DNA of 64,000 bases from a virus (Duplodnaviria; Caudoviricetes): the IMG/VR virus record IMGVR_UViG_2931714059_000002, positions 1-64,000 of that record; one strand, written 5' to 3'. Made by a program: the position numbers and the translations under genes. The notes beneath the pieces were generated by a model that ran no database searches, was not told the origin of the DNA, and worked only from the letters and a program-made list of their open reading frames with translations. The stretch's first letter is position 1, and every line of letters begins with the position of its first letter. Shown piece by piece: positions 22,444 to 56,792 of this stretch.

Positions 22444-22519
22444 TGTCCGGACAGCATCCGGACAAGCTATCCGGGGCGCTCCGGACAAGGCGCGGACAAG
22501 CTTCTGATCTGCGAGGACA
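22444..22519. repeat. TCCGGACA repeat cluster
   Basis: TGTCCGGACA 22444; TCCGGACA 22457 and 22480; GCGGACA 22492; CTGATCTGCGAGGACA 22504. Confidence 0.8.
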
Positions 22520-22543
22520 TGGCGGGCAAGCCTATCCGGAGTA

Positions 22544-22589
22544 CGACACGACATGGTGCTTTGACATCACCATGCGATGTCGCAATACT
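22544..22589 (+). promoter_or_regulatory. Operator-flanked promoter P3
   Basis: TTGACA 22561-66, N17, AATACT; operators on both sides of -35. Confidence 0.85.
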
Positions 22590-22621
22590 TGACCCATCGC
22601 CACCCACCCAGGGAGAAACAG

Positions 22622-23176
22622 ATGACTGCCAGCACCATCGCCGCCACCACCGTCCTCCGCGCGCTGGCCGCCGCTGGCATCACCGACCCGGCCCGCACCG
22701 CGCAGGCCCTGGACGCCGCCGGCCTCCTCACGCCCACCGCCGACCCGGCTCCGGCTCCGGCGAGCATCGACATCACCGTGCTGTCGCTCATCGACGGATC
22801 CGTGCAGACCGTCACCCTGACCGACTACTACACCCAGGACATCGACGGCGAGCACAAGATCGCTGGCCGTGTGGACGCCGACGAGGCAGTGATCGGGCCG
22901 GTCGTCATCAAGGTGACCCTGCCCGACGGCACGCGCATCTTCCGGTCGGCCGAGTCCCAGATGACGAAGTTCGGCTTCGGGCGCCCCTACCTGGCCATGC
23001 GGTCGCACAGCGCGACCGGGCCCGCGAGCGAAGCGTTCGTTCTCGGCTACAACACGGCGCTCGGGGCCGTGGAAGAGACCCGGTCGACCTACCGCCGCGC
23101 GCAGCTGGACATCAACCGCATCGGGCGGAGTGAGCACGCCACCGACTTCACCCTCATCTTCCCTCGCCTCAGCTAG
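22622..23176 (+). CDS. Hypothetical protein
   Basis: RBS AGGGAG. Confidence 0.7.
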   Translation: MTASTIAATTVLRALAAAGITDPARTAQALDAAGLLTPTADPAPAPASIDITVLSLIDGSVQTVTLTDYYTQDIDGEHKIAGRVDADEAVIGPVVIKVTLPDGTRIFRSAESQMTKFGFGRPYLAMRSHSATGPASEAFVLGYNTALGAVEETRSTYRRAQLDINRIGRSEHATDFTLIFPRLS

Positions 23177-23269
23177 CCAGCCTGCCGCCGGACTGGCGGA
23201 CAAGGGGCGCCAGCGCCCTGAGCTGTGCGGATGGGTGTCCGGACCGTCCGGACACCCATCCCGGGAATG

Positions 23270-23315
23270 CGACACGAGATGGCGATTTGACATCGCCATG
23301 TGATGTCGCAATGAT
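23270..23315 (+). promoter_or_regulatory. Operator-flanked promoter P4
   Basis: ATGGCGAT-TTGAC-ATCGCCAT; TTGACA 23287, N17, AATGAT. Confidence 0.85.
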
Positions 23316-23345
23316 GGGCACATCGACACCACCTAGGGAGATCCG

Positions 23346-23540: not shown

Positions 23541-23604
23541 GAGCCCGGACAAGCACCTGACCTGCACGGACAAAGACCGGACAACACCTCACCTGGGAGA
23601 GACC

Positions 23605-24058: not shown

Positions 24059-24760
24059 CTACGCGCCCTCCTCGCGGCCGGCCGTCTCGCCGGCGGACGG
24101 CGCGTGCTCGACACGCCAGCCCTCCCGCGTCAGCATGCCCTCGGCCTGGAGGCGATCCAAAGCCTTGCCGACCACATCGAGTGACGCCCCGTAGGTCTCC
24201 GCGAGCTCGGCCGCCGGTGGCAGGGGCGTGCCGGCCGCTGCGTCGGCGTAGTCCCGGCGCAGCATCTGCACCAGATGCTCCGAGGTCACCCGCCACGGCG
24301 GCAGGCCGGCATCTCTCCGCATGGCGTCGATGTAGTTCTGATCGTAGGGCGCCGCGGCAGCCAGCTGCTTGGGCGAGACCTCCTGGGCCTCAATGAGGCG
24401 CAGCAGCTCGGCGTGCACCTCCGTGCGCAGTTCCTCCAGGCGATCCTGGGCCGCTTGGTGCGCCTGCGCCTTGCGCTTGACCTCCCGGATCGCAGCCTGG
24501 GACGTCATGTCCTCGGAGACGGCCGGCAGCCTACGCCCACTTTCGGCTGCGGACTTGGCCGAGCGCTCGACCGTCCGGCGCGAGTAGCCAGCCGCCTCAG
24601 CGAGGTTGCCGGTGGTGGCCGTACCGGCGATCTTGTGGGCGGCGACAGCGTCTTGGAGCGGCTTGCGGGTCTTTGTGATCTGGGTCTGGGCGTCCTTGAT
24701 CCGGCTGGTCAGGTCCCTGAGCGTGGCGAGGGGATCGGGGGCTCTCTGGGTGGTGGGCAT
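24059..24760 (-). CDS. Triple-HTH repressor (two HTH repeats plus GntR-like wHTH)
   Basis: LAEAAGYSRRTV, LAAAAPYDQNYI, LPPAAELAETYGASLDVVGKALDRLQAEG; probable leaderless start (CATCAT-N6-ATG). Confidence 0.75.
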   Translation of the reverse strand: MPTTQRAPDPLATLRDLTSRIKDAQTQITKTRKPLQDAVAAHKIAGTATTGNLAEAAGYSRRTVERSAKSAAESGRRLPAVSEDMTSQAAIREVKRKAQAHQAAQDRLEELRTEVHAELLRLIEAQEVSPKQLAAAAPYDQNYIDAMRRDAGLPPWRVTSEHLVQMLRRDYADAAAGTPLPPAAELAETYGASLDVVGKALDRLQAEGMLTREGWRVEHAPSAGETAGREEGA

Positions 24761-26372: not shown

Positions 26373-26468
26373 CCGCCGCCCGGACTCTCTGTCCGGACAG
26401 CTCGGGATAACTCCCCGGACAACCCACCTGACCTGCAAGGACATTGCCCGGACACCCATCCCGGAGTG

Positions 26469-26514
26469 CGACACACGATGGTGATTTGACATCGCCATGT
26501 GATGTCGCAATACT
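26469..26514 (+). promoter_or_regulatory. Operator-flanked promoter P6
   Basis: TTGACA 26486, N17, AATACT; near copy of P4 cassette. Confidence 0.85.
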
Positions 26515-26544
26515 TGATCCATCGACACCGACAAGGGAGATCCG

Positions 26545-29670: not shown

Positions 29671-30414
29671 GTGGACACCCTCATCGCCCTCGCCGTCATC
29701 GCCAGCGTCGTCTGGCTCATCACCAGCAGCCGCGCGCACCGCCGCCCGCCGGGCCGCCCAGGCCGCATCCCCCGGCCACGCCGGCACCGCGACCACGGCG
29801 CCGGCGCCTCCGCCGCACGCCGCGCCTCCCAACTCGCCCAAGACGCCCGCGGCGGCCCCGGCCGCCGCCTCCTGGCCGCCGCCGGCATCACCACCCGCGG
29901 CGCCGCCCGCGACCAACGGGCCGCTGCACAGTGGAGGTCAGGGGCCGTCGGCGAGCAGCTGACCGCCGCGATCCTCGCCGGAATCCCCGGCATCCACGTG
30001 CTGCACGACCGGGCCCTGCCCCGGGGCAGGGCGAACGTCGACCACCTGGTGATCACGCCGGACGGCAAGGTGCTGCTCGTGGACTCGAAGCTCTGGAGCG
30101 GCCACTTCCGCATCAGCGTCACCCGCGACGGCCGACTCCTCCACGGCACCGCCGACCGCACCCGCTCGCTGAACTCCGCGCGCTACGAAGCCGAGCAGGT
30201 ATCCGCCGCCCTCGGTGGCCTGCCCGTCACCATCCTCATCGCCGTGCACCGCGCACCCATCACGGACGGCGCCATCACCACCGACGACGGCATCTGCATC
30301 ATCCCGGCCGGCACCCTCCCAGACACCATCCGGGCGCTGTCCGGACGGGCCCGGACAACCGCCCGGCGCCTCGCCGAACAGGCCGACCGGGCCCTCCCCC
30401 CGCACGCCCACTGA
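29671..30414 (+). CDS. NERD-domain nuclease with N-terminal TM
   Basis: GAVGEQLT, VLHDRALP..NVDHLVI, VDSKLW. Confidence 0.85.
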   Translation: MDTLIALAVIASVVWLITSSRAHRRPPGRPGRIPRPRRHRDHGAGASAARRASQLAQDARGGPGRRLLAAAGITTRGAARDQRAAAQWRSGAVGEQLTAAILAGIPGIHVLHDRALPRGRANVDHLVITPDGKVLLVDSKLWSGHFRISVTRDGRLLHGTADRTRSLNSARYEAEQVSAALGGLPVTILIAVHRAPITDGAITTDDGICIIPAGTLPDTIRALSGRARTTARRLAEQADRALPPHAH

Positions 30415-30422
30415 CCCGCAAC

Positions 30423-30477
30423 GGCGGCCGGACAGCTGTCCGGCCGCCCTGTCCGGACAGCACGGACAAGTTGTCCG
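30423..30477. repeat. CCGGACA/TGTCCGG palindrome cluster
   Basis: GGCGGCCGGACAGCTGTCCGGCCGCC; TGTCCGGACA 30450; CGGACAAGTTGTCCG. Confidence 0.8.
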
Positions 30478-32929: not shown

Positions 32930-33033
32930 GCGACAACATCCGGCCACTCTGGCCACTACCCGCTGTGGCCGCGCGGTGGCTGATACGCGGCTATCCGTGA
33001 CGCTGCGCAGCGGATACTCTCGGACGTCGGAAG

Positions 33034-33051
33034 TATTCCGGAATAGTCAAG
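33034..33051. promoter_or_regulatory. GntR operator TATTCCGGAATA (copy 1)
   Basis: Palindrome downstream of -10 TACTCT (33015-20). Confidence 0.75.
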
Positions 33052-33078
33052 GCACAGCGAAAGAGAGGTGCGGCCCGG

Positions 33079-35329: not shown

Positions 35330-36448
35330 ATGGAGCCCGGACAGACCCCCGCCCAGCCGGGCACCGCGCCGGCCGAGAACCCGTACATCAAGTACCGCAC
35401 CGAGCGGCGCACACGGAAGGTGTGGCACAGCGAGGACGGCGTCAACTACGAGCTGATCAACGACGACTACGACGTCCGCGTACCCGTTCCGCCCCGGGAC
35501 AGCGACCTGATCGTCCTGCGCCTCGTGACCGGCGCGACCATCTTCATGGTCACCGCCGCCCTCGCGTGGTCGACGGCCGGCATTGGTGACCTGCTGTCCA
35601 TGTCCGTGGCCGCGCCCATCGCCTACGCCGCCGCGATCGGATTCGACGCCGCGTGGATGACCTGCATGGGCATCGAGTGGCTCAACCGCTACCGGCCCGA
35701 GCGTGCCCGCAAGGCGATGATCGCCGGGCACCTGTGCCTCATCGTGTCCATTGCGGCCGTCAGCGCACACGGAGGCATCAAGGTCGGCTCCGCGTGGGTC
35801 GCAGTCATCGGCGCCACGGTCAGCGTCATCGCGAAAGCGATGTGGATGTTGCTGCTGAGCCACACCGCGCTGGAGCTGGACCCGCGGGCCCGGAAGTGGA
35901 TGGCGCGGATCGAGGCTCGGCACGGCTCGCAGCTCGCCATCGCCAGCTGGCAGCGAGGTCTCCACCGCACGCAGGCCCGCCACGCGGCGCTGGTCGCAGC
36001 CCTCGGCGTGCCCGGACAGCTCCCGGACATGCAGTCCGGGCAGGCGGACAGCCCGATCCCGACCACCGGACAGACCCCGGGCGCACCGGTGCTGACCTCG
36101 GCGGACACGCGTCCGGACACTGTCCCGGCGCTGTCCGGGCCGGTACCTCCCGTGCCCGCTCCGCAGGTGCCGCAGGTGGCGCAGGTGCCGCAGCCGCTGG
36201 GCGCGCCGAGCACTCCCCCGCCGCCGCCGCCTCCGAACGACGAGCAGGACGAGAACAAGAAGCAGGACCGGGCGGACGAGGTCGTACCGATCGAGCGGGG
36301 CAACCTGACCGCCGCCCTCCGCAAGCTCCTCGCTGCCGGCATCACCGACCCCACCACCGCGCACCGCATGGTCGTGGAGGCCGGCATCACCGACGCCAAG
36401 GCGGACACCGTCAGCCGCACCATGCGCCGCCTCCAGCGGAGCGCCTGA
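35330..36448 (+). CDS. SpdB/DUF2637-like 4-TM protein with C-terminal putative DNA-binding domain
   Basis: WSTAGIGDLL, AAIGFDAAWMTCMGIEW; Pro-rich linker; KADTVSRTMRRL tail. Confidence 0.7.
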   Translation: MEPGQTPAQPGTAPAENPYIKYRTERRTRKVWHSEDGVNYELINDDYDVRVPVPPRDSDLIVLRLVTGATIFMVTAALAWSTAGIGDLLSMSVAAPIAYAAAIGFDAAWMTCMGIEWLNRYRPERARKAMIAGHLCLIVSIAAVSAHGGIKVGSAWVAVIGATVSVIAKAMWMLLLSHTALELDPRARKWMARIEARHGSQLAIASWQRGLHRTQARHAALVAALGVPGQLPDMQSGQADSPIPTTGQTPGAPVLTSADTRPDTVPALSGPVPPVPAPQVPQVAQVPQPLGAPSTPPPPPPPNDEQDENKKQDRADEVVPIERGNLTAALRKLLAAGITDPTTAHRMVVEAGITDAKADTVSRTMRRLQRSA

Positions 36449-39590: not shown

Positions 39591-39689
39591 CACTCTGTCG
39601 GCTGCCTCCCCCGTCGGTCACGCACCGGCGGGGCAGAGGGGAGCCGGACAGCAATTCAGCAGACCGGACAGCGAGAAAGGCAGAGGCGA

Positions 39690-42221: not shown

Positions 42222-42725
42222 ATGGCCAGTAAGGCGCAGCGCGACAAGGGCCGGGCCCGCGAGGTGCGCGTGGTCGAGCTGCGGCTCCAAGGATGGGGAT
42301 TCGAGCAGATCGCCGCCGAGGTCGGGTACGCCGACCGCGCCGGAGCCCACAAGGCGTTCAGCCGCGCGATGCAGGCGGCGCTGGAGGAGCAGGCCAAGGA
42401 CCGCAATGAGCTGGCCCAGGCCGAGCTGGAGCGCCTGGACTGGGTGATCCGCTCCATGTCGCCCGCCCTGGCGATGGGCGACCACCGTGCGGCTCAGGCC
42501 ATCCTCGGAGCGATCGACCGCCGCACCCGCCTCCTCGGCCTGGATGCGCCGCAGCGCGCCGAGGTGACAGTCCACCAGCCACCCGGCAGCGAGGAGGAGC
42601 GGCAGCAGCGGCTCGCCGCCGTGGCTGCCGAGATCATGCGCCGCACGCAGAGCGGCGGGCCGCTGGACGAGGAGAGGCTGCTGTCCGGACCGCGCCCGGA
42701 CATGCCCGGACAGGGCGAGTCATGA
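42222..42725 (+). CDS. Terminase small subunit
   Basis: LRLQGWGFEQIAAEVGY HTH; DRRTRLLGLDAP; precedes TerL. Confidence 0.8.
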   Translation: MASKAQRDKGRAREVRVVELRLQGWGFEQIAAEVGYADRAGAHKAFSRAMQAALEEQAKDRNELAQAELERLDWVIRSMSPALAMGDHRAAQAILGAIDRRTRLLGLDAPQRAEVTVHQPPGSEEERQQRLAAVAAEIMRRTQSGGPLDEERLLSGPRPDMPGQGES

Positions 42726-44311
42726 GCGCTCTGACCAGGGCGGACAGTGTGTCCGGACAGCAAGACAGCCTCGCGAACATGTCCGACGCCGAGCTGGAGG
42801 CCGAGCTGCGCCGGCTGGCCGCATGGCGGGACCCGGCCACCATGGGCCTGTACCTCAACAGCGACAACCCGGACGTCTTCAAGGTCCGCGCGCACCACCG
42901 GCTGATCGCCGCGAGCCTCGCGCAACTCGGCCCTCAGAACGACAGGTTGCTCGTTATCACCCCACCGCAGGTCGGCAAGTCCACGCTGGTCAGCGAGTTG
43001 ATGTCCTGGTGGTGGCTCACCCTCCACCCCCGTGACCGCATCGCCATCACCTCCTACGCGGCCTCGTTGGCGCTGAAGAAGTCGAGGACTGTTCGCCGCT
43101 GGGTGGCCGAGCATGGGCACGAGTTCGGCCTGCGGCTCCAGCCCGGCGACTCCGCCATCTACGACTGGTCACTCACCACCGGCGGCGGTATCCGCGCTGC
43201 TGGCGTCGGTGGCTCCCTCACCGGATTCCCGACCACCGGCGTGGGCATCGTCGACGACCCGCACAAGGACCGCGCCGAGGCGGAGAGCCCGCTGATGCGC
43301 ACCCGGGTCTGGGAGTGGTGGTCATCAGTGTTCCTATCTCGGCTGCGGCCGGGCGTGCCCCTAGCGCTGGTCCTCACCCACTGGCATGAGGACGACCTGG
43401 CGGGCCGCGTCCTCGCCCAGGAGGGCCGCGTCGAGGAAGGCGGCCGGTGGCGCGTCGTGCACCTGGAGGCGATCCACACCGGCCTCCACGGGCCCGACCC
43501 CATGGGCCGCGCACCGGGCGAGCCCCTCACTCATCCCGCGATCCCCGACGAGGACCAGGCGGCGCTTACCGCGCACTGGGACGACAAGCGCCGCACCTCC
43601 ACACCGCGCGACTGGGGATCGCTCTACCAGGGCGACCCGAAGCCGGCGGAGGGTGCGCTGCTGACGGCCAACCTGCTCATGGCCCGTCGCTGCCCCAGCC
43701 CGGCCGAGGCGCAGCGCCGCGCCGTGGCCGTGGACCCGTCCGGAGGCGGCCGGGACACCGCCGGCATCATGGCCGGCTACCTCGGTACGGATGAGCGGCT
43801 GTACCTAACGCACGACCGGACCGCGGTCATGTCGTCCGATGCGTGGTCCCGCGCCGCCTGCAAGCTCGCTGCGGAGACCGGGGCGCAGATCATCTACGTG
43901 GAGCGCAACTACGGCGGCGACATGACCACGCTCGCCGTCCGCACCGCGTGGGACGCGCTCCAGCGCGAGGGCGTCATCCCCTCCGACCTGCTGCCGCCCT
44001 ACGTGCAGCCCGTCACCGCGCGCACCGGCAAACTGCTGCGCGCGGAGCCGATCGCGCAGCAGTGGCAGGAGGACCGGGTACGGACCGCCGGGGCGGCCGG
44101 GCCGCTCGTGGAACTGGAACAGGAGTGGGCGACGTGGCAGCCCGGCGCCGCCTCCCCCGGCCGGATCGACGCCTCCGTGTACCTCGCCTACGGACTGCTG
44201 CGACCCCCGTCGACCGCACAGGCCATCAGCTCCCCCGCTGGCATCTCCCTCGCGCAGGCGGCCAGTTCAGGCCGCACCGGCTCCGGTCTCGGCGCTGTGC
44301 GGCTGCGGTAG
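42722..44311 (+). CDS. Terminase large subunit
   Basis: PPQVGKS Walker A, IVDDPHK, WHEDDLAG, VAVDPS, SPGRIDA. Confidence 0.95.
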   Translation: MSALTRADSVSGQQDSLANMSDAELEAELRRLAAWRDPATMGLYLNSDNPDVFKVRAHHRLIAASLAQLGPQNDRLLVITPPQVGKSTLVSELMSWWWLTLHPRDRIAITSYAASLALKKSRTVRRWVAEHGHEFGLRLQPGDSAIYDWSLTTGGGIRAAGVGGSLTGFPTTGVGIVDDPHKDRAEAESPLMRTRVWEWWSSVFLSRLRPGVPLALVLTHWHEDDLAGRVLAQEGRVEEGGRWRVVHLEAIHTGLHGPDPMGRAPGEPLTHPAIPDEDQAALTAHWDDKRRTSTPRDWGSLYQGDPKPAEGALLTANLLMARRCPSPAEAQRRAVAVDPSGGGRDTAGIMAGYLGTDERLYLTHDRTAVMSSDAWSRAACKLAAETGAQIIYVERNYGGDMTTLAVRTAWDALQREGVIPSDLLPPYVQPVTARTGKLLRAEPIAQQWQEDRVRTAGAAGPLVELEQEWATWQPGAASPGRIDASVYLAYGLLRPPSTAQAISSPAGISLAQAASSGRTGSGLGAVRLR

Positions 44312-44767: not shown

Positions 44768-46285
44768 ATGGCCTGGCCCTGGAGGCGGTCCCGCCCGCCC
44801 ATCGACCCTGGCGACGGCGCCGTGCAGCGGCACGAGGTCGCCGGCACGCTGCTCTCATCCGCCGCGCTCGTGTCCCGCAGGCAGGTCCGTACCGTCCTCG
44901 GTCAGCGCCAGCCGTGGCAGGCCGAGGCATGGGATATGTACGACCGGGTCAGCGAGATCAAGTCCGGCACCCGCTGGGCGAGCAACGCCTGCTCCCGCGC
45001 CCGCCTGTACGTCGGGCGTGTCGACCCGGACGGCAGCTCGGAGCCGGCACCAATCGACGCGCAGGACGACGACGAGGACCAGGAGCTGGTGGCGCAGCTC
45101 CTCGCGCCGCTGGGCGAGCTGGCCGGTGGGCAGGACGGGCAGTCCGAGATGCTGCGGCGGATGTCCATCCTGCTGGACGTCCCCGGGGAGATGTACCTCG
45201 TGGGGTACGACGACGAGCAGCTGGGCCGCCGGTGGGTCGTGGCCTCTCCCAGCGAGATCCGCTCAGGCGGGGGCGGGCGGATCCACCTCGCCAGCCAGGA
45301 GATCCCGGGCGCGCAGATCAAGCTGCACCTGGACTCGGCATCCGTGATTCGGATCTGGCACCCGCACGCGCAGTGGGCCGCCCGGCCCGACAGCCCGATG
45401 CAGGCCCTCCTCGACCCGCTCCGGGAGCTACAGGGCCTGTCCGGACACGTCATGGCCACCACCGACTCGCGCCTGGCGGGCGCCGGCCTGCTGCTGGCGT
45501 CGCAGGACGTGGTGCCTGGCGCGATGGGACAGAGCGAGGGCGCCAATCCGGCGCACGGTGGGGCCCTCGCCCAGGCGCTGCTGGAGGCCATGGCCACGCC
45601 TCTCAAGGACCGTGACTCGGCTGCGAGCATTGTGCCGCTGCTGCTGACCGCTCCCGGCGACATCAAGGGCAAGCTGGAGCACATTGACTTCGTGACCCAA
45701 CTGGACAAGGAGGTGCTGCCGCTGCGGGAGTCCGCGATCCGACGCGTCGCCGTCGGGATGGACATGCCGCCCGAACAGCTCCTGGGCCTGGGCGACATCA
45801 ACCACTGGTCCGCTTGGCTGGTCGAGGAGACCGGCGTCAAACTGCATATCAGTCCCAAGCTGGGGCTGCTGTGCCACGCCCTGAACACGCACTTCTACCG
45901 GCCGTCTCTGCGCGCCCTCGGGGTCCCGAACCCCGAGCAGTACACGATCTGGTACAACACCTCGGCTCTGGAGCGACGCGCCAACTCCGGGCCCGAAGCG
46001 GCGCAGGCGCACGAGCGCGGGCTGCTGTCCGACATCTCGTACCTGCGGGCGCTCGGCTACTCCCGCGACGACATGCCGGACGACGTCGAGCAGGAGCGGC
46101 GCGTGCTGCTGCGGATCGCCCTGGCGCACCCCTACCTGGCGCCCCCGATCCTCGCCGACCTGGGCATCACCGTGCCGGGCCTCGCGGAGGCCGCCGCCGC
46201 CATGCCGCGCCGTACCGCGACAACGGCCCCGGCCTCACCGGCAGCTGAGCCGCAGCTGTCCCGACCCGGGCCCCCCGCCTCATGA
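44768..46285 (+). CDS. Portal protein
   Basis: WQAEAWDMYD, SRLAGAG, RVAVGMDMPPEQLLG..NHWSAW. Confidence 0.9.
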   Translation: MAWPWRRSRPPIDPGDGAVQRHEVAGTLLSSAALVSRRQVRTVLGQRQPWQAEAWDMYDRVSEIKSGTRWASNACSRARLYVGRVDPDGSSEPAPIDAQDDDEDQELVAQLLAPLGELAGGQDGQSEMLRRMSILLDVPGEMYLVGYDDEQLGRRWVVASPSEIRSGGGGRIHLASQEIPGAQIKLHLDSASVIRIWHPHAQWAARPDSPMQALLDPLRELQGLSGHVMATTDSRLAGAGLLLASQDVVPGAMGQSEGANPAHGGALAQALLEAMATPLKDRDSAASIVPLLLTAPGDIKGKLEHIDFVTQLDKEVLPLRESAIRRVAVGMDMPPEQLLGLGDINHWSAWLVEETGVKLHISPKLGLLCHALNTHFYRPSLRALGVPNPEQYTIWYNTSALERRANSGPEAAQAHERGLLSDISYLRALGYSRDDMPDDVEQERRVLLRIALAHPYLAPPILADLGITVPGLAEAAAAMPRRTATTAPASPAAEPQLSRPGPPAS

Positions 46286-47367
46286 CCGCGCCCGTCGAGC
46301 AGGCCGCGGCGTGGCGCCGGTCGTGCCTGGACATGGCTACCCGCCGGGCTCTGGAGCGCGCCGGGCAGTGGCTGCTGCACTCCAGCGGCCGGCCCCTACG
46401 CGGCCAGTACCGGCACGTACCGCTGCACTCCATCCACGTGCACGTCGCGGCGCAGCAGCACCAGGTCGACCGCATGCTGCACGGGGCGTACCGCGAGTTC
46501 GTGGCCTCGACTCCCGACCAGGTGGCGCTGCACCAGTCCGTCGACCAGTACGTGCGGGCCCTGATCCTGTCCCGGGAGGAGCACCGCACGGAGTATCTCG
46601 ACACGGTCATCCGCCAGTCCGAGCAGCCCGAGGCCGTCGCCGAGGCCGAGATGTACACCGCGGTGCGCGCGGCCGTCGGCGAGTACCTGGACGCCGTCCG
46701 GACCGGGCTCCTCGGCCTGGACGCGCTCACGGCCGCCGCCGGCGGGCCGGATGACCCGCTGGACTGGTCGGCATGGCCGGACGCCTCGGTGTGGTCCCGG
46801 ATCGTGGAGCGCGTCATCGCCCCTGTGCAGCGCCGGATCTGGGAGCGCTCCTACCGGCAGGCCGCACCGGACGCCCCGGCCGGCGCCGAGGCTGCGGCGG
46901 ACGACCTGAGCCGGACGCTGGTGGAGCGGCTCTCCGGACTGCCCCGCCGTGTGTGGGACCGGCTGCGCGCCGCAACCAGCACGGGGCTGGCGCGCGGTGA
47001 GCAGCTGCCGGAGCTGCGGGCCCGCCTCGGGCAGCAGGCCACGCTCGAGGAGTGGGACGGCACCATCCGCACGATGACCCGCACCGAGACCATGTCCGCC
47101 CTCAACTCCGGCGGCCTCGCGGCGGCCATCGACGAGCAGGACCGCACCGGCCGCACCTGGACCAAGACCTGGGTGGCCACCCTCGACGGCCGCACCCGGC
47201 CGTCGCACGCCGCCGCAGATGGCCAGACCCGGCCCATCGGCGAGCCGTTCACCGTCGGCGCCGCCCGGCTCCAGCACCCAGGCGATCCGCTCGCGCCGCC
47301 CGGCGAGACCGTCAACTGCCGCTGTACCGCCACCTATCGCCTCTCATCTGGAGGATCTGCACGATGA
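46282..47367 (+). CDS. MuF-like minor head protein
   Basis: RTE, KTWVATLDGRTRPSH, PGDP, NCRC. Confidence 0.9.
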   Translation: MTAPVEQAAAWRRSCLDMATRRALERAGQWLLHSSGRPLRGQYRHVPLHSIHVHVAAQQHQVDRMLHGAYREFVASTPDQVALHQSVDQYVRALILSREEHRTEYLDTVIRQSEQPEAVAEAEMYTAVRAAVGEYLDAVRTGLLGLDALTAAAGGPDDPLDWSAWPDASVWSRIVERVIAPVQRRIWERSYRQAAPDAPAGAEAAADDLSRTLVERLSGLPRRVWDRLRAATSTGLARGEQLPELRARLGQQATLEEWDGTIRTMTRTETMSALNSGGLAAAIDEQDRTGRTWTKTWVATLDGRTRPSHAAADGQTRPIGEPFTVGAARLQHPGDPLAPPGETVNCRCTATYRLSSGGSAR

Positions 47368-49514
47368 CCCAGCGCACGCACTGGCGGTCTCTGACAGCCG
47401 CCGCCGCCCCGATCGAGGTCGCCGACGACGGCACGTGGAGCGGCCCGATCACGTGGACTGACACCTGGTCGGCGGACGGCCGGCGTCTCGCAGCGCTCGA
47501 CGGCGAGATCCCGACCCGGCCCCTGCCCCTGCCCGTCGCCGTGCAGTGGCACCTGGCGCAGGGGCACGAAGGCGCCGAGGTCGGCCTGGCCCGCCTCGAT
47601 GAGGTGTGGCAGGACGGGCACGCGGTCTGGGGCCGGGGCGTCATCGACATGCAGGACCCACGCGGCCCCGAGCTGGCCCGGAAGATCCGCAACGGATTCC
47701 TCCGATTCGCTTCCGCCGACGTGGACGACGTGGAGATGCGAGCCGTCGCGATCGGCCCGGACGGGGAAGTCCTCGACAGCGAGCCGCCCGAGGGCGGGGC
47801 AGTCGGGGAGCTGTGGACTCGCTGGCGCATCATGGGCGTGACTCTCCTCGCTCACCCCGCTTTCCCGGGCGCGCACATCGCCGTTGCGCCGACTACGCCC
47901 GCCCCGGAGCCGGAGGCCACGCCGGTACCCGTGGAGGTCGAGCTGACCGCCGCTGCTGAGCTGGCAGAGGATGACGAGGACGACGGCCAGGAACCGGAGC
48001 CGGACGGCCCCGTCGCGGCCGGCCTCGTCATCAAAGCCGCGGACACCGGCCGTGTGCTGATGCTCCAGCGGTCCCTGGACGACGATGACGACCCGGCCCG
48101 CGGCACGTGGGAGTTCCCCGGCGGCGGCATTGAGGACGGCGAGGAGCCGCTGCACGCGGCGCTCCGCGAGTGGCAGGAGGAGACCGGCGCGACCCTGCCG
48201 GAGGACCTGCTGATCTCGGACGGGTGGATCTCCGAGAACGGCGTGTACGCCGGGTTCATCGCGGTAGTCCCCACCGAAGACACCATCGCCATCAACACCG
48301 ATCACGAGGACCGGAAGGTCCGCAACCCGGACGACCCCGACGGCGACCACATCGAGGTCGTCGCCTGGTGGGACCCGGCCGAACTGCCCGACATGCCAGC
48401 GCTCCGCGACGAGGTCCGGGCCACCCCGTGGCACCTCATCGCCGAGGCGCGCATCGCCGAGGAGCCGGACGACGGCCCGGCCGATGACGTGCCCGATGGC
48501 GAGCTGAGCGGCGCCCTCACGGCGGCGGCGTTCCGGCTGGATGGCTGGACCCCGCCCGCCGCGTGGTTCGCGGACCCGCAGATGCCGGGCCCGCAGCCCA
48601 TCACCGTGGACGACGACGGCCGCGTGTCCGGGCACCTCGCCGCTTGGCACGTGCCCCACCGCTCCTACCCAGGGCGCGACATCACCGCACCCCGCAGCAG
48701 CACCGGCTACGCCGCGTTCAACACCAGGCCGCTGGCAACCGCTGACGGCCTGGTCGACGTCGGCCTCATCACCATGGACACCGGGCACGCCGGCCTCCAG
48801 CTCGGCCGTCAGCAGGCCGCGCGGCACTACGACGACACCGGCACCATGGCCGCTGTCGTCCGCGCCGGGGAGGACGCGCACGGCATCTGGCTGGCGGGGG
48901 CCGTCCTGCCGTGGCTGACGGACGAGCAGCGGATGCGGCTGTCCCTGTCACGGTTCTCCGGTGACTGGCGCAGCGAGAGCGGGGCGATGGAGCTGGTGGC
49001 CGCGCTCGCCGTCAACACCGAGGGCTTCCCCGTGCCAGCGGCACCGTCCGGTGACCGGGAGGAGTACGCGCTGATCGCGGCCGGGGCGCTGCCCAGCAGC
49101 CGGCAGACCGCCCGCGTGACGGCCGCGCTCGATGCCGGGCGGCGCCTCCAGACGTGGCAGGCCGGGCGGTCGATCCGCTCCCCCCGGATGCTGGCGCTGG
49201 CCGCGTCCGCCAGCGAACCGACCGACCGGGAGGAGGACCTACCGCCTCTGGACGGCATCGAGCCCGACCCCGAGGCCCTCGCGGAGGCCCTGAACTGGGT
49301 AGACGACGTGGGCGGGCTGCCCAGGTACATCCGCCGGATCGCGGATCACCTGATGCGGGAGGGCCGCACCGAGTCCCACGCCATTGCCATCGCCGTCAAC
49401 GCGGTCAAGCGCTGGTGCCGGGGCGGCGGCGACGTGAAGGCCGACACCCGCGCGAAGGCGTGCGCGGCCGTCGCCGAGTGGACCGCGAAGCGGGCGCGCG
49501 CCCGCGCGTCCTGA
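47364..49514 (+). CDS. Capsid maturation protease-like protein with inserted Nudix domain
   Basis: SADGR..PLP..H..PAF domain; Nudix box GGIEDGEEPLHAALREWQEETG; second head domain GHLAAW..SGDWR..LAVN. Confidence 0.8.
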   Translation: MTQRTHWRSLTAAAAPIEVADDGTWSGPITWTDTWSADGRRLAALDGEIPTRPLPLPVAVQWHLAQGHEGAEVGLARLDEVWQDGHAVWGRGVIDMQDPRGPELARKIRNGFLRFASADVDDVEMRAVAIGPDGEVLDSEPPEGGAVGELWTRWRIMGVTLLAHPAFPGAHIAVAPTTPAPEPEATPVPVEVELTAAAELAEDDEDDGQEPEPDGPVAAGLVIKAADTGRVLMLQRSLDDDDDPARGTWEFPGGGIEDGEEPLHAALREWQEETGATLPEDLLISDGWISENGVYAGFIAVVPTEDTIAINTDHEDRKVRNPDDPDGDHIEVVAWWDPAELPDMPALRDEVRATPWHLIAEARIAEEPDDGPADDVPDGELSGALTAAAFRLDGWTPPAAWFADPQMPGPQPITVDDDGRVSGHLAAWHVPHRSYPGRDITAPRSSTGYAAFNTRPLATADGLVDVGLITMDTGHAGLQLGRQQAARHYDDTGTMAAVVRAGEDAHGIWLAGAVLPWLTDEQRMRLSLSRFSGDWRSESGAMELVAALAVNTEGFPVPAAPSGDREEYALIAAGALPSSRQTARVTAALDAGRRLQTWQAGRSIRSPRMLALAASASEPTDREEDLPPLDGIEPDPEALAEALNWVDDVGGLPRYIRRIADHLMREGRTESHAIAIAVNAVKRWCRGGGDVKADTRAKACAAVAEWTAKRARARAS

Positions 49515-53401: not shown

Positions 53402-53862
53402 TGCCGCCCGTCATCTACCCGGAGCCCGGCGAGCGCCTGCCCGCGCTGGTGCGCCGCACGCTGGCCGCTCTGCCGGCCGATCAGCGGCACCGCGTCACGG
53501 TGGTGACTGGCGGCGTGCGGTACGGCCTGGACGTGCCCGATGTCCTCACCGCGCCGGATGCACCGCCGCCCCACACCGACGACCACGGTCCGGCCGACGG
53601 CGGGATCGTCAACTCCGCCGCCCTGAAGCACATCGGGGAGGGCGGCGGACCGATCGAGGTGCTCCCCCCGTCCCAGCTGCCCGACGGTCTCGTGACCGCC
53701 TCGCTCCCCCAGGGCGACGACGGCCCCGAGCAGACCGAAGACCTCCCGGCTGATGCCAAGGACGAGACCCCCCTCGACCCCCTGACCGCCGCCTTGACCG
53801 CCGCCCCGACCCCCCGCAAGACCAACAGCAGCAGCGCCAAGCGGCGCCGCGCGAAGGAGTAA
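53401..53862 (+). CDS. Hypothetical virion-module protein
   Basis: TGATG overlap. Confidence 0.6.
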   Translation: MPPVIYPEPGERLPALVRRTLAALPADQRHRVTVVTGGVRYGLDVPDVLTAPDAPPPHTDDHGPADGGIVNSAALKHIGEGGGPIEVLPPSQLPDGLVTASLPQGDDGPEQTEDLPADAKDETPLDPLTAALTAAPTPRKTNSSSAKRRRAKE

Positions 53863-53864
53863 CG

Positions 53865-55853
53865 ATGCCGGCCATCGAGTGCCCATCCCTGGTGCGCGGC
53901 GTGGCGCTGCGCGCGACCCGCCTGGACCCGTGCGGCCGGCCGATGTACGGCGACTGCAACCAGGTCGTCAGCAAGGGCTTCATCAGCGTGCAAATGTCCC
54001 CGCAGACCGAGGAGGGGGAATCGATCAGCGTCACGAATGCCGCTGGAGAGACGTGCGTGTCGGAGGCCCCCTGTACGCAGATCAGCGGCATCAACACGAC
54101 GATCGAGTTCTGCGCCGTCGATCCCGACCTCGTCAACATCCTCAACCCCACGTATGAGCCGTACCTGGACTGGCAGGGCAACACGATCGGTTGGGACACC
54201 CCGGGCCGCCTGACCTGCGACCAGGGATTCGCCCTGGAGGTGTGGACCGGGACCGCGCGCTCCGATGCCGCGTGCACTGGTGGAGGCGGACAGGGCTCAT
54301 GGGGCTACCTGCTGCTGCCGTGGGTCATCGGCGGCGCCGAGGGCGACCTGACCATCGGCAACAGCGCGCTCACCTTCACTTTCGCCGGTCGCACGAAGCT
54401 CGGCCACGGCTGGCGGCGCGGCCCCTACCCGGTACAGGCCGGCGAGGGCGGCGTCCCGTCCCCCATGCTCCAGCCGATCCTTCCGGACAAGCACCGGCGA
54501 TTCTTCACGACTTCGATCCGTCCGCCCGAGGCCGAGTGCGGTTGCCAGCCGGTGGACCGCCCGACGCCGGACCCGGCGGACCTGTACATCACGGGTATGC
54601 CGGGCGAGTCGCCGCGGCGCACGGTGCGCCTGCGCGCCGATAACCACGGTTTCGGACCGGTCGTCATCAACTGGGGCGACGGCTCCGCGCCGCAGGAGGC
54701 GCAGGATGGTGCGTGGGTCACCCACACGTACACGACGGACGGCGACTACACGATCAGCGTCGCCGACAAGGAAACCCCGGTCGTCACCGCAACCCGGGAC
54801 ATCACCGTGCCGATCCCGGCGGATGAGCCGACGGTGACGCTGACCGGGCCCGACCCGGACAATCGGTACGTGGTGGCGGCGACGGTGGTACTGCCGCCGC
54901 AGGCCGCGACTGGGGCGACGCTCGACTGGGGCGACGGCTCCGACGTCCAGGAGGTGACCGTCGGCGAGGACAGCACGGTGACGGTGCTGCACACCTACAC
55001 CGTGCCGGGCGTGTACACGGTCACGGTGCGGCGCGGCGACATCGACACCTACCGGGGTCGGGCGGCGATCCGTGTGCCGGTGACGGAGGCGCCGGACGCC
55101 ACCGTCGCCGTCGACACCGAGGACCCGTCGGGCCTGAGTGTGGTCCTCACCTACGACAACGCCGGGCGTGGGCCGGTGAGTATCACGTGGGGTGCGGGCG
55201 GCACGCCGCAGCAGGCGGAGGAGACTGGCACGGCCTCGCACACCTACGCGCAGCCGGGGGACTACGTGATCCGGGTGCAGTCCCTCGGGGACCCGGCGGC
55301 GTCCACCCAGGTGCCGGTGACGGTGCCGATGGACCTGCCGGCGGAACCGCTCACCGTGACGGTGGCGGGCGACAACTCGGACCCCACCGGCATGACCGTG
55401 GTCGCGACGGTCGACAACAACGGCCAGGGCCCCGTCGCGCTCGTGTGGGGCGACGGCCAGGAGGACGCTGGAGTCACCGGGTCGGCGTCGCACACCTACG
55501 CGGCGGCCGGTACCTACACGGTGACCGCCACGGACGAGGACGACGCGGCCCGCACGGGCAGCGCCGAGGTGACGGTGCCCGTGGAGGTCGAGCAGCCGGC
55601 GCCGAGCGTGACGCTCGCCCAGGACCCGGACGACGCCACCGGCATGACGGTGACCGCGACGGTCGACAACGGCCTGTTCGGGCCGGTCGGTATCGCCTGG
55701 GGCGACGGTGAGGAGAGCACCGACGTGCCGGGTGACGGCACGGTCTCGCACCAGTACGCCGAGGAGGGCACCTACACCGTCACCGTGACCGACGAGGACA
55801 ACGCCGCGGCCCCGGCGGGGACGGCGACCGTCACCGTCCCTGTGGGCGGCTGA
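53865..55853 (+). CDS. Major tail tube protein with five PKD/Ig-like repeats
   Basis: RATRLDPCG, GFALEVW, YLLLP; five WG(D/A)G..H.Y...G.Y units. Confidence 0.9.
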   Translation: MPAIECPSLVRGVALRATRLDPCGRPMYGDCNQVVSKGFISVQMSPQTEEGESISVTNAAGETCVSEAPCTQISGINTTIEFCAVDPDLVNILNPTYEPYLDWQGNTIGWDTPGRLTCDQGFALEVWTGTARSDAACTGGGGQGSWGYLLLPWVIGGAEGDLTIGNSALTFTFAGRTKLGHGWRRGPYPVQAGEGGVPSPMLQPILPDKHRRFFTTSIRPPEAECGCQPVDRPTPDPADLYITGMPGESPRRTVRLRADNHGFGPVVINWGDGSAPQEAQDGAWVTHTYTTDGDYTISVADKETPVVTATRDITVPIPADEPTVTLTGPDPDNRYVVAATVVLPPQAATGATLDWGDGSDVQEVTVGEDSTVTVLHTYTVPGVYTVTVRRGDIDTYRGRAAIRVPVTEAPDATVAVDTEDPSGLSVVLTYDNAGRGPVSITWGAGGTPQQAEETGTASHTYAQPGDYVIRVQSLGDPAASTQVPVTVPMDLPAEPLTVTVAGDNSDPTGMTVVATVDNNGQGPVALVWGDGQEDAGVTGSASHTYAAAGTYTVTATDEDDAARTGSAEVTVPVEVEQPAPSVTLAQDPDDATGMTVTATVDNGLFGPVGIAWGDGEESTDVPGDGTVSHQYAEEGTYTVTVTDEDNAAAPAGTATVTVPVGG

Positions 55854-55946
55854 CGCATCATCTCCGCCGCCCCGGGGGCGGGCTCTTGGGCTGGGACTCT
55901 CCGAGCCCCGGGGCGGCGGGCTCATCACACCGACAGGGGACATCGC

Positions 55947-56792
55947 ATGGATGAGGTCCGGGACGACGACAGCCCGTGCGGGCCGTGGCCGGTCGACCTG
56001 ACGTGCTGCCCCGGCTGGCCGGAGGACCCGGCCGACTGGGAGCCCGCGCACCACCTGGCGGTGGAGATCGCCACCGACGTCCTGTGGCGGCTGACGGGCG
56101 GCCGGTACGGGCTGTGCGAGGAGCTGATCCGGCCGTGCCGCACCGCGTGCTCCTCGGGGCGCGGCGGCGCGCTGGCGTGGGGCGCGGGCGGTCTGCTCTC
56201 CCCGACTCTCGGGCCGGGCGGCCGGTGGAGCAACGGCGGCGGCTGTGGCTGCCGGTCGGGCTGCTCGTGCCGGCCGCTGTGCGCGATCGACCTGCCGGGG
56301 CCCGTCCATGAGGTGCTGGAGGTCCGGCTGTCCGGGCATGTCCTCCCGGTGTCCGCGTGGACTGTCCATCATGTCCCCGCAGGTGGGAGGCTTGTCCGGA
56401 CAGACGGCGGGTGCTGGCCGGACTGCCAGGACATGACGCGTCCGGACACCGATCCGGACACGATGTCTGTCCGCTACCTCCTCGGCCGCGACGTGCCGGC
56501 CGCCGGGCGGCGCGCCGCCGGCCAGTTGGCGTGCGAGATCTACAAGCAGTGCACCAGGTCCAGCGGGTGTGCTCTCCCCGCCGGGGTGAAGACCGTCACG
56601 AGAGAGGGCGTGTCCTACGAGATCGTGCCGCCCGGGGACTGGCCGGAGACGCTGCGCATGCACCTGCCGCAGGTGTGGGCGTGGGTGCAGCTCGCCGCCC
56701 CGCGGCCCGGGGCGACCCGGCCCGCGCTGTACTCCCTGGACCTGCCGGGCCCGCCGCTCGCCACCCGCTACCGGCCCGGAGGCCGCCCATGA
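55947..56792 (+). CDS. Head-to-tail adaptor
   Basis: LWRLTGGRYGLC, WPDCQD, LACE, VTREGVS. Confidence 0.8.
   Translation: MDEVRDDDSPCGPWPVDLTCCPGWPEDPADWEPAHHLAVEIATDVLWRLTGGRYGLCEELIRPCRTACSSGRGGALAWGAGGLLSPTLGPGGRWSNGGGCGCRSGCSCRPLCAIDLPGPVHEVLEVRLSGHVLPVSAWTVHHVPAGGRLVRTDGGCWPDCQDMTRPDTDPDTMSVRYLLGRDVPAAGRRAAGQLACEIYKQCTRSSGCALPAGVKTVTREGVSYEIVPPGDWPETLRMHLPQVWAWVQLAAPRPGATRPALYSLDLPGPPLATRYRPGGRP

What the first reader, a model, noticed from the sequence alone, without database searches (positions are those of the whole stretch)
22444..56460. Phage-wide clusters of a TGTCCGGACA/CCGGACA motif, dense inside a membrane-anchored putative DNA-binding gene
Seen: the perfect palindrome TGTCCGGACA occurs at 22444, 26390, 30450, 42750, 45438 and 56393. 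My rough hand estimate at about 73% GC is well under 0.1 expected per 64 kb. Most copies sit in clusters of half-sites, with further clusters at 23231-23259 (14-bp inverted repeat), 23545-83, 36011-36139, 39644-70 and 42682-712. Inside the head-tail adaptor (56320-56460) the codons are visibly AT3-rich where TGTCC words occur, suggesting selection on the DNA itself. The first three sites are about 4 kb apart. One of the densest clusters is in the linker of 35330-36448 (4 TM plus C-terminal helical domain). Known: Streptomyces plasmid SpdA binds a palindrome in its own gene. Inference: a membrane protein tethers or moves phage DNA via dispersed sites, i.e. a segregation or intramycelial spreading system in a tailed phage.
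Basis: partly seen in the sequence, partly recalled or inferred. Interest (0 to 1): 0.88.

Follow-up and report, generated by a model that had tools for sequence, protein, structure and literature searches.

The report
Docking-word clusters for phage membrane protein
A Streptomyces prophage has scattered clusters of one ten-letter DNA word through its genome; they are most likely landing sites for the DNA-binding tail of its own plasmid-type membrane 'spread' protein, which would tie the phage DNA to the cell membrane.

Summary
TGTCCGGACA occurs 6 times (0.11 expected) and its half-site forms 9 clusters in the window, against 0.07 in simulations. Half-sites sit about 11 bp apart, so they lie on one face of the helix. 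Four clusters lie inside genes, in several reading frames, and one is written into the head-tail adaptor gene with rare codons.

The word follows one protein. All type A elements examined carry the clusters: 7 prophages and 15 of 15 viral-contig loci whose 35330-36448 homologue has the '(A/E)DTVxRTRRR' tail. Homologues with another tail carry a looser TCCGGA word or none. Related phages without the gene have no clusters. No other protein family is shared by all these elements.

The protein has four membrane helices, a floppy linker and a small three-helix tail. It most resembles SpdB/SpdB2 spread proteins of Streptomyces plasmids, not SpdA.

My best reading (about 0.55) is that these are multivalent docking sites tying phage DNA to the membrane. 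Binding and purpose (spreading, segregation, replication anchoring or promoter control) are untested.

SpdB2 homologues in actinophages are already in print. Earlier notes of this scan report SpdB-like genes carpeted with their own words on other DNA. New here are the genome-wide spread and the lack of a TraB pump.

The parts
35330..36448 (+). Gene for a 372-aa SpdB-like membrane protein. It has an N-terminal beta-hairpin, four membrane helices, a long helix, a roughly 100-aa disordered Pro-rich linker and a C-terminal three-helix HTH-like tail.
   Evidence: AF2 model; phrog_35187, E 2e-63; no hit in the local Pfam or NCBIfam; nearest named Atlas clusters carry SpdB_N / HTH_SpdB_C.
36305..36442 (+). 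Coding region of the C-terminal three-helix domain (aa 326-371). Its third helix carries the conserved 'ADTVSRTMRR' stretch and is the proposed reader of the motif.
   Evidence: pLDDT is mostly above 90 in this region of the whole-protein model. R, T and R of helix 3 are invariant in 20 tails. Fold matches are weak and go to HTH DNA-binding domains.
36012..36138 (.). Cluster of 8 GGACA/TGTCC words inside the linker codons of the SpdB-like gene, in all three reading-frame offsets.
   Evidence: Conserved in the G005 relative. The same position holds a cluster in the G253 homologue, which is 30% identical, and in 13 of 15 viral type A loci.
22444..22520 (.). Intergenic cluster: the palindrome plus 4 co-oriented half-sites at spacings of 11/23/11/21 bp, upstream of an early TTGACA promoter/operator repeat.
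23197..23254 (.). Intergenic cluster with an inverted pair, upstream of the second early promoter/operator repeat.
23545..23583 (+). Intergenic cluster of three co-oriented half-sites (spacing 21 and 11 bp) before the gene at 23605.
26390..26454 (.). Intergenic cluster: the palindrome plus 3 co-oriented half-sites at spacings of 22/22/11 bp, upstream of the third early promoter/operator repeat.
30338..30476 (.). Cluster across the 3' end of the NERD-domain gene and the following intergenic space, including a palindrome at 30450.
   Evidence: Conserved in G005.
39644..39670 (+). Pair of half-sites 20 bp apart, just upstream of a 73-aa ORF (39690-39911).
42682..42785 (.). Cluster across the end of the putative small-terminase gene and the first codons of the large-terminase gene, with a palindrome at 42750.
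   Evidence: TerL matches Terminase_6N. Present in G005, with individual words turned over.
45438..45447 (.). Lone palindrome inside the gene 44768-46285.
56329..56473 (.). Symmetric array in the head-tail adaptor gene: six TGTCC words, the central palindrome at 56393, then GGACA words. It is written with rare A/T-ending codons.
   Evidence: The adaptor matches phrog_783. Homologues in G127 and G253 lack the array.

Best explanation
The tGTCCGGACa words are docking sites for the C-terminal helix-turn-helix tail of the phage's own SpdB-like membrane protein (35330-36448).

Proposed mechanism:
- The protein sits in the membrane through four helices and probably forms oligomers.
- Its disordered linker of about 100 residues lets several tails reach the DNA.
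- Each cluster offers 3-11 sites one helical turn apart, so several tails can bind one face of the DNA together.
- Nine clusters over 34 kb would hold much of the phage chromosome at the membrane.
- One cluster lies in the protein's own gene, as sps does in spdA.

Shown: the enrichment, the phasing, the selection at DNA level, the protein architecture, and the co-variation of word and tail across elements.

Inferred: that the tail binds the word, and what the tether is for. Possible purposes are anchoring replication, stable inheritance or movement along hyphae, or control of the three early promoters that have a cluster just upstream.
For: 1. Enrichment and clustering.

2. Helical phasing. 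Distances between successive same-orientation half-sites peak at 10-12 bp (50 cases), 21-23 bp (16 cases) and again near 33 and 45 bp. This covers 224 sites in 40 clusters of six elements.

3. Selection on the DNA. Intragenic words occupy all three frame offsets. GC3 falls to 0.80 against 0.96 in the adaptor-gene array. Adaptor homologues in G127 and G253 have only 2 and 1 words in the whole gene. The four intragenic clusters vanish when codons are shuffled.

4. Co-occurrence. Two distant prophages, found only through the motif pattern, each carry a homologue of this protein:
   - G253: 81 half-sites and 9 palindromes in 100 kb.
   - G127: 66 half-sites and 8 palindromes in 76 kb.
   It is the only non-structural protein shared by the window, G127, G253, G312, G123 and G327. 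Within +/-10 kb of 21 type A loci no other family is present in all; the next best is in 15 of 21.

5. Co-variation with the tail:
   - Of 15 viral-contig loci with the '(A/E)DTVxRTRRR' tail, 15 have a cluster of at least 3 half-sites, and 13 have one inside the homologue's own gene.
   - Of 3 loci with the 'DGYVRTVNSRD' tail, 0 have such a cluster. The whole genome of phage SF3 has no palindrome.
   - 'PDTVDRYIR' tails go with TCCGGA clusters that lack the outer T-G...C-A preference.

6. Natural control among TerL relatives. G001 has the gene and has clustered CCGGACA, 26 forward and 6 reverse. G002, G003 and G004 lack the gene and have 0.31-0.41 sites per kb, unclustered.

7. The tail is a confident three-helix domain with invariant R/T/R in helix 3. 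Its best fold matches, though weak, are HTH DNA-binding domains.

8. Precedent. SpdB2 is an oligomeric four-helix membrane protein that binds dsDNA (PMC4447253, section 13). sps lies inside spdA (PMC4170104).
Against: - No binding has been measured. The link is correlation among related mobile elements, and relatedness inflates such counts.
- Two type A loci (L218, L226) and G127 have no cluster inside the gene itself.
- In 5 of 15 viral loci the clusters are confined to the gene, or nearly so, within the 20 kb seen. Dispersal is therefore not a fixed feature of the family.
- Published SpdB2 binding is non-specific (PMC4447253).
- Fold matches are weak: Z at most 5.3 and Foldseek E at least 2.3.
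- The same word pair occurs at host loci. It was found in 96 of 401 Streptomyces genomes, including a conserved site before a DoxX-domain gene.
- A mycobacterial transcription factor, MscA, binds TTGTCCGGACAA (PMC11711680, section 20). A host reader therefore cannot be excluded.
- 13 of 40 clusters are mostly intergenic, against 10-16% intergenic DNA. Three sit 33 bp or more upstream of early -35 boxes. Both facts also fit a regulator.
- The record has no pump, which weakens the 'spreading' part.
Confidence: 0.55

Rival explanations
1. The words are operators for a soluble transcription factor, either a phage regulator or a conserved host factor of the MscA kind. That factor switches early and late phage operons, and the membrane protein gene merely belongs to its regulon.
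For: - Three clusters lie directly upstream of the early TTGACA promoter repeats, and others lie at gene starts.
- Clusters are enriched two- to three-fold in intergenic DNA.
- TTGTCCGGACAA is a proven operator of MscA in M. smegmatis (PMC11711680, section 20).
- Paired words occur at host loci in 96 of 401 Streptomyces genomes, against few for the reversed control. One is a conserved intergenic site.
- The palindrome fits the GT...AC shape of GntR-type operators; that shape is recalled from memory.
Against: - 27 of 40 clusters are mostly inside coding sequence, including a structural gene recoded at a cost in codon usage.
- Arrays of up to 11 phased sites are unusual for an operator.
- No GntR-type protein was found in G127, G253, G312, G123 or G327, and only 3 of 24 loci have one within 10 kb.
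- No other protein family is common to the elements that carry the motif.
- Phages related by TerL but lacking the membrane protein lack the clusters.
Confidence: 0.2
2. The words guide a DNA motor or an end-processing enzyme, for example a host FtsK/SffA-type or resident-plasmid TraB translocase in the manner of clt or KOPS, or the phage terminase.
For: - Strand bias of the half-site: 39 to 18 in the window, 26 to 6 in G001, and 146 co-oriented against 78 anti-oriented with transcription.
- One cluster sits at the terS/terL junction.
- clt regions consist of direct 8-bp repeats read by TraB (PMC4447253, introduction).
Against: - The full site is a palindrome, and several arrays are symmetric (56329-56473), which makes a poor directional signal.
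- There is no FtsK_SpoIIIE domain in the record.
- The terS homologue is not shared by the motif-bearing phages; there is only a 28% match in G253.
- The terS/terL cluster is absent from G127 and G253.
Confidence: 0.08
3. The clusters are a by-product of low-complexity peptides (PDT, SGQ and SGH repeats) or of codon usage, with no function as DNA.
For: Linkers and N-termini of many homologues hold PDT/SGH/GHPDT peptides. Type B linkers are rich in Asp-Pro.
Against: - Five of nine clusters in the window are intergenic.
- Intragenic words use several frames.
- Codon shuffling removes the intragenic clusters.
- The adaptor array lies in a conserved folded region and uses rare codons.

Confidence: 0.02

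Closest known systems
SpdB / SpdB2 spread proteins of Streptomyces conjugative plasmids (pIJ101 SpdB, pSVH1 SpdB2)
   Same: - Integral membrane protein with four helices that binds dsDNA and is encoded on actinomycete mobile elements.
[quoted passage not shown]
- The nearest named Atlas clusters carry Pfam SpdB_N and HTH_SpdB_C.
- A homologue on the 10.5-kb plasmid pADI95-16c sits beside a DUF3307 gene and an AAA ATPase gene.
   Different: - Published binding is non-specific and no cognate word is described.
- Here a specific 10-bp word follows the tail type and is spread in clusters over the whole phage genome.
- This phage has no TraB-type pump.
- No direct sequence match to a named SpdB2 was obtained.
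- phiC31 gave only a marginal hit and has no clusters.
SpdA2 and its sps palindromes (pIJ101)
   Same: A palindromic binding site, repeated 2-3 times, lies inside the gene of the protein that binds it. It has a mild effect on plasmid stability (PMC4170104, results and discussion read).
   Different: - SpdA proteins are small and soluble, with an N-terminal DNA-binding region.
- sps is CGTCACGTGACG, which is absent from the window.
- sps is local, not dispersed.
TraB-clt of Streptomyces plasmids
   Same: Short direct repeats are read by the HTH of a membrane-associated DNA-handling protein (PMC4447253, introduction).
   Different: TraB is an FtsK-like ATPase, and none is present here. clt is one locus, and its repeats are not palindromic. 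The pSVH1 repeat sequence is recalled from memory, not seen in a call.
Dispersed anchoring or centromere-like sites: RacA-ram and Noc-NBS of Bacillus subtilis, the four sopC sites of prophage N15, and membrane protein p16.7 of phage phi29 (all recalled, not checked in a call)
   Same: Many copies of a short site scattered over a replicon are bound by one protein that links the DNA to the pole, membrane or partition machinery. p16.7 is a phage membrane protein with a C-terminal DNA-binding domain.
   Different: - The protein families are unrelated.
- p16.7 binds without sequence preference.
- None has phased arrays written into its own gene.
MscA box2 (TTGTCCGGACAA) of Mycobacterium smegmatis
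   Same: The same 10-bp core is bound by an actinobacterial protein, as shown by EMSA and reporter assays (PMC11711680, section 20).
   Different: There is a single site at one promoter, bound by a soluble host regulator. Its family is not stated in the parts I read, and the supplementary figures could not be seen.

Membership tests
SpdB/SpdB2 spread proteins (Pfam SpdB_N PF27080 + HTH_SpdB_C PF27079) | N-terminal integral membrane domain with four helices | tested here: met
   The AF2 model has helices at 58-89, 95-118, 123-152 and 155-179, with pLDDT about 80-90.
SpdB/SpdB2 spread proteins (Pfam SpdB_N PF27080 + HTH_SpdB_C PF27079) | Small C-terminal helix-turn-helix domain | tested here: met
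   Three helices at 326-371, mostly pLDDT above 90. The domain modelled alone gives the same result. Best fold matches are HTH DNA-binding domains, but weak.
SpdB/SpdB2 spread proteins (Pfam SpdB_N PF27080 + HTH_SpdB_C PF27079) | Match to the family's profile HMMs | not testable with these tools
   The local Pfam copy lacks PF27079 and returned neither SpdB family at E up to 10. The only lead is the Atlas: the nearest named cluster scores 0.95 with SpdB_N on 46% of its members, and a cluster with 87-88% SpdB_N/HTH_SpdB_C scores 0.87.
SpdB/SpdB2 spread proteins (Pfam SpdB_N PF27080 + HTH_SpdB_C PF27079) | Encoded in a tra/spd operon beside a TraB (FtsK-like) translocase | tested here: not met
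   No FtsK_SpoIIIE match in the 80-kb record at E up to 0.01. A homologue on plasmid pADI95-16c does lie near an AAA ATPase gene.
SpdB/SpdB2 spread proteins (Pfam SpdB_N PF27080 + HTH_SpdB_C PF27079) | Sequence similarity to a named SpdB/SpdB2 | tested here: inconclusive
   tblastn against 72,556 plasmids found 3 records, all annotated as hypothetical. phiC31 gp25 gave E 0.008 with the family HMM.
SpdA / sps | Soluble protein of 117-163 aa with an N-terminal DNA-binding region | tested here: not met
   The protein is 372 aa, has four membrane helices and has a C-terminal tail. Family features are from PMC4170104.
SpdA / sps | 12-bp palindrome CGTCACGTGACG in or at the gene | tested here: not met
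   0 matches in the window at up to 1 mismatch.
ParABS partition system | A ParB-type centromere-binding protein | tested here: not met
   No ParB_N match in the record. ParA was not searched as a family. None appeared among the 59 window proteins scanned against Pfam.
Repressor 'stoperator' sites of cluster A mycobacteriophages (recalled) | Single asymmetric sites, one orientation relative to transcription, mostly in short intergenic gaps | tested here: inconclusive
   There is an orientation bias (146 co-oriented against 78). However, the sites are palindromic, arrayed at 11-bp phase, and mostly in coding sequence.

The most novel reading that the evidence does not exclude
Temperate Streptomyces phages carry a self-contained, pump-less DNA-to-membrane tether. 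An SpdB-like protein reads phased tGTCCGGACa arrays scattered along the phage chromosome like a dispersed centromere. This lets phage DNA be held at hyphal membranes or cross-walls and be inherited or passed along the mycelium without virions, possibly by borrowing a host or resident-plasmid translocase. The same contacts would also gate the early promoters.
Probability: 0.2. Interest if true: 0.85.

Novelty: new variant of a known kind. Interest (0 to 1): 0.6.

Why it matters
How Streptomyces plasmids, and perhaps phages, move double-stranded DNA through a mycelium is only partly understood. SpdB2 is called the key spread protein, yet it has no known DNA target.

A specific word that tracks the SpdB-like tail would give that family a testable recognition code. 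It would explain why these genes are riddled with odd repeats. It would also show that a tailed phage can organise its whole chromosome around a membrane protein, even recoding a structural gene to do so.

The work also yields a simple bioinformatic rule for annotating many actinomycete prophages: the type of tail predicts the word.

Tried and rejected
- **Maximal-order Markov k-mer test.** It hid the motif because its sub-words are also enriched. The order-3 model was used instead.
- **Close relatives in databases.** Megablast of 24 kb found no phage record, and only two short plasmid matches (4% and under 1% of the query). A single-protein scan of viral contigs with the 35330 protein found none. 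An alignment of closer homologues (A2) found 18 loci.
Rejected: no GntR-type protein in five motif-bearing elements.
- **SpdA/sps.** Rejected (PMC4170104).
- **Gene 38026-38928 as a TraB remnant.** It has no significant similarity to the 580-aa protein or the AAA ATPase of plasmid pADI95-16c. The 39021 protein weakly matches that plasmid's DUF3307 protein, E 2e-5.
- **Fold search of the whole model.** No match at E up to 0.001.
- **Local Pfam and NCBIfam.** No family for the protein.
- **DUF2637.** Not found in the record.
- **phiC31.** No clusters. Its three regularly spaced TCCGGA words lie at 16002-16038 within the annotated tail-fibre gene with collagen-like repeats.
- **Expression.** No RNA holder was listed for 33000-40000, and read laying was not used. 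This says nothing about expression.
- **Literature.** The word TGTCCGGACA occurs in 27 papers, of which 15 were listed. Of those, only the MscA paper concerns bacteria. Searches on SpdB2/intramycelial/TraB and on Streptomyces/prophage/spd/conjugative listed no report of a cognate word for SpdB-like proteins. A search for the TraB repeat word returned only unrelated papers. The pZL12 paper (Zhong et al. 2010) is not held; I saw only its citation and a mention in PMC4487206. Supplementary files of PMC11711680 and PMC4447253 were not seen; they may state MscA's family and show the conserved boxes.
- **Complex prediction.** Not used, because it takes no DNA.

Full report
**What the window is.**
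- The window is the first 64 kb of an 80,217-bp provirus record rated 100% complete. It has 71.6% G+C.
- My GC3-based gene calls put nearly all genes from 1257 to 68766 on the + strand.
- It is a tailed temperate phage. It has a large terminase (Terminase_6N), a Mu-F-like head protein, a head-tail adaptor (phrog_783) and a phiC31 Gp3-like recombination directionality factor.
- Between the early and late genes lies a plasmid-like block. It holds a GntR/UTRA regulator (33079-33837), an excisionase-type HTH gene (33939), a DUF6197 gene, some small ORFs and several membrane proteins, among them 35330-36448.

- TGTCCGGACA occurs six times, at the stated places, against 0.11 expected.
- CCGGACA occurs 57 times against 18.7 expected; 39 copies are on the + strand and 18 on the - strand.
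- In an order-3 Markov background the 10-mer and its sub-words are among the most enriched words of the record. The others are two unrelated motif sets: TATTCCGGAATA and the early promoter/operator repeat.
- Four Streptomyces genomes carry 4-12 copies of the palindrome in 5.7-9.4 Mb. Three of the seven copies in G005 lie in a prophage related to this one.
- The half-sites form nine clusters in the window, against 0.07 (at most 1) in 100 simulations.
- Pooled over six elements, distances between successive same-orientation half-sites peak at 10-12, 21-23, about 33 and about 45 bp. That is one site per helical turn.
- The position weights read tGtCCGGACA: each 'half-site' is a degenerate copy of the palindrome.

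**The words are selected as DNA.**
- Five of the nine clusters are intergenic. The four intragenic ones disappear when codons are shuffled within genes.
- Within genes the words fall in different reading frames.
- In the head-tail adaptor gene, six TGTCC words, a central palindrome and then GGACA words form a symmetric array. It is written with rare A/T-ending codons: GC3 is 0.80 over 54 codons against 0.96 over the other 227, Fisher p = 2e-4.
- That stretch of the protein aligns with homologues in two distant prophages, whose genes hold only 2 and 1 such words.
- In the closely related G005 prophage (77-94.5% nucleotide identity) the clusters are kept. At the terminase junction individual words have moved while the cluster persists.

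- I searched 401 Streptomyces genomes for the palindrome followed within 30 bp by a half-site. 96 genomes matched, and the reversed control was rare. One match is in G138, an unpublished genome.
- Several matches fell close together in single regions. I fetched two of these regions, in G253 and G127, and they proved to be prophages only distantly related to this one, with structural proteins 27-66% identical. G253 has 81 half-sites and 9 palindromes in 100 kb. G127 has 66 half-sites and 8 palindromes in 76 kb.
- The only non-structural protein they share with the window is the homologue of 35330-36448. The same holds when G312, G123 and G327 are added.
- In G253 the homologue is 30% identical, yet a cluster again sits in the linker codons.

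**Co-variation with the tail.** Homologues occur in 35 of 401 Streptomyces genomes; this is a floor because the search was shortened. Their membrane domains align, but their C-terminal tails fall into classes.
- **Type A, '(A/E)DTVxRTRRR'.** This class includes the window, G005, G127, G253, G312, G123, G327, and 15 loci from viral contigs.
  - All 15 viral loci have at least one cluster of three or more half-sites.
  - 13 of the 15 have a cluster inside the homologue's own gene. L218 and L226 do not, nor does G127.
  - About ten of the 15 have further clusters outside the gene. In about five the clusters are confined to the gene, or nearly so, within the 20 kb seen.
- **Type C, 'DGYVRTVNSRD'.** Three loci, including the isolated phage SF3, have no such cluster. 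The whole SF3 genome has no palindrome.
- **Type B, 'PDTVDRYIR'.** These carry TCCGGA clusters in the linker and at one or two other places, without the outer T-G...C-A preference.
- **TerL relatives.** G001 has a type A gene and has clustered, strand-biased CCGGACA (26 forward, 6 reverse). G002, G003 and G004 have no homologue and 0.31-0.41 unclustered sites per kb.
- **Other candidate readers.**
  - Within 10 kb of 21 type A loci no other protein family is universal.
  - GntR-type regulators are absent from five of the motif-bearing elements.
  - Across the 401 genomes, motif pairs occur in 15 of 35 genomes with a homologue and in 81 of 366 without one. That is a weak association, p = 0.011 (counts).

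**The protein.**
- The AF2 model, built on 30 sequences, gives:
  - a beta-hairpin at 22-52;
  - four membrane helices at 58-179;
  - a long helix at 185-225;
  - a disordered Pro-rich linker at 226-322;
  - a confident three-helix domain at 326-371.
- In 20 aligned tails one R of helix 1 and R, T, R of helix 3 are invariant.
- The tail modelled alone matches best the HTH DNA-binding domains of Mu, Mos1 and IstA transposases, ArgR, Fur and a small terminase. These matches are weak: Z at most 5.3 and Foldseek E at least 2.3. The whole model matches nothing clearly.
- The family is small: 299 representatives at E up to 0.001 among 1.84 billion. It corresponds to phrog_35187.
- Three plasmids hold homologues. 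On the 10.5-kb pADI95-16c the gene is followed by DUF3307, a 580-aa protein and an AAA ATPase.
- The ESM Atlas places the protein next to clusters carrying Pfam SpdB_N, HTH_SpdB_C and DUF2637. I could not run those models.

**What is known.**
- In PMC4447253 (introduction and section 13 read), SpdB2 of pSVH1 is an oligomeric membrane protein with four helices. It forms pores, binds dsDNA non-specifically and is essential for plasmid spreading. [quoted passage not shown]
- In PMC4170104 (results and discussion read), SpdA2 binds the palindrome CGTCACGTGACG inside its own gene and mildly affects plasmid stability. That word is absent here, and SpdA is a different kind of protein.
- phiC31 itself gave only a marginal family hit and has no clusters.
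- The word TTGTCCGGACAA is an operator of MscA in M. smegmatis (PMC11711680, section 20). A conserved Streptomyces intergenic site before a DoxX-domain gene carries two copies. A host reader therefore remains possible.
- My searches listed no report of a cognate word for SpdB-like proteins.

**Earlier notes of this scan.**
- After reaching this reading I looked them up.
- They report, on at least seven other genomes, SpdB-like genes 'carpeted' with a word that changes with the tail. One of those words is GGACA/TGTCC.
- Many other notes report prophages with TraB/Spd modules and name the plasmid-phage pZL12 as a laboratory precedent. I saw that paper only as a citation.
- These are unchecked AI notes and not independent evidence, but they agree with my reading.
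- What differs in this window is that the clusters are spread over 34 kb, reaching early promoters, the terminase junction and a structural gene, and that the phage has no TraB-type pump and no ParB.

**Reading and odds.**
- I put about 0.55 on the clusters being multivalent docking sites for the tail of the SpdB-like protein, tying phage DNA to the membrane.
- I put about 0.2 on a soluble regulator from phage or host, about 0.08 on a motor or packaging signal, and about 0.02 on a by-product of coding. The remainder is unassigned.
- The purpose of the tether is open:
  - Three clusters end 33 bp or more upstream of early -35 boxes, so promoter control is as likely as segregation or spreading.
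  - 27 of 40 clusters lie mostly in coding sequence, which argues for a structural role.
- The decisive experiments are binding assays with wild-type and mutated arrays, tail swaps, ChIP-seq, and deletion or recoding in the phage.

Noticed in passing
window 22535-22600, 23260-23330, 26460-26530: Three copies of an early promoter-like repeat. A TTGACA -35 box sits inside nested inverted repeats (ATGGCGAT-N5-ATCGCCAT, flanked by GCGACA...TGTCGC). Each copy lies downstream of a CCGGACA cluster and near the divergent repressor-like gene 24059-24760. ATGTCGCAAT and TTTGACAT are among the most enriched words.
   Followed up: partly
window around 33900 and the GntR/UTRA gene 33079-33837: TATTCCGGAATA-type palindromes are strongly enriched: TATTCCGGAA occurs 5 times against about 0 expected. 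They share the TCCGGA core with the main motif but differ outside it.
   Followed up: partly
L123, L138, L139 (Streptomyces genomes G355, G205, G037), about position 1500-1530 of each locus: A conserved host intergenic site, TGTCCGGACA-N12-TCCGGACA spanning a TTGAC box, lies between an rRNA-methylase-like gene and a 484-aa DoxX-domain gene. It is identical in at least four genomes and nearly so in two more. It may be the operator of a host regulator such as the mycobacterial MscA, which binds TTGTCCGGACAA.
   Followed up: partly
G196:C444:14001-54000 (L204, L205): The locus of a homologue with a different tail ('LRKDVGRLRRRIEKE') has no CCGGACA clusters. It is very rich in a GACTTTGCAAAGTC-type palindrome: TTTGCAAA occurs 10 times against 0.0 expected. 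This may be that tail's own word or another regulator's operator.
   Followed up: no
Homologues P0003, P0012, P0022, P0026, P0069 and L001:3438-3485: Many homologues begin with peptides such as SGHPDT or GHPDT, and their linkers hold PDT/SGQ runs. These are the protein-level shadow of CCGGACA words written at the 5' end and in the linker of the gene.
   Followed up: partly
window 40351-40794: An ORF of 147 aa matches only positions 2-120 of the 172-position Phage_integrase profile (E 5e-9). It is probably a remnant of a tyrosine recombinase between the plasmid-like block and the late genes.
   Followed up: no
G373:C1:3375646-3375691: A tandem run of the word at 9-bp spacing (a palindrome followed by three CCCGGACAG units) in a Streptomyces chromosome, outside any element I examined.
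   Followed up: no
window 47364-49514: A NUDIX domain (E 5e-18) sits at residues 217-345 of a 716-aa protein encoded directly after the Mu-F-like head-morphogenesis gene.
   Followed up: no
whole record G000: Further over-represented palindromes include GAACGCGTTC and ATCACGTGAT; each has a count of 4 when both strands are tallied, that is 2 sites. CGTACTC(C) is also enriched and may belong to the late promoter that another note describes.
   Followed up: no
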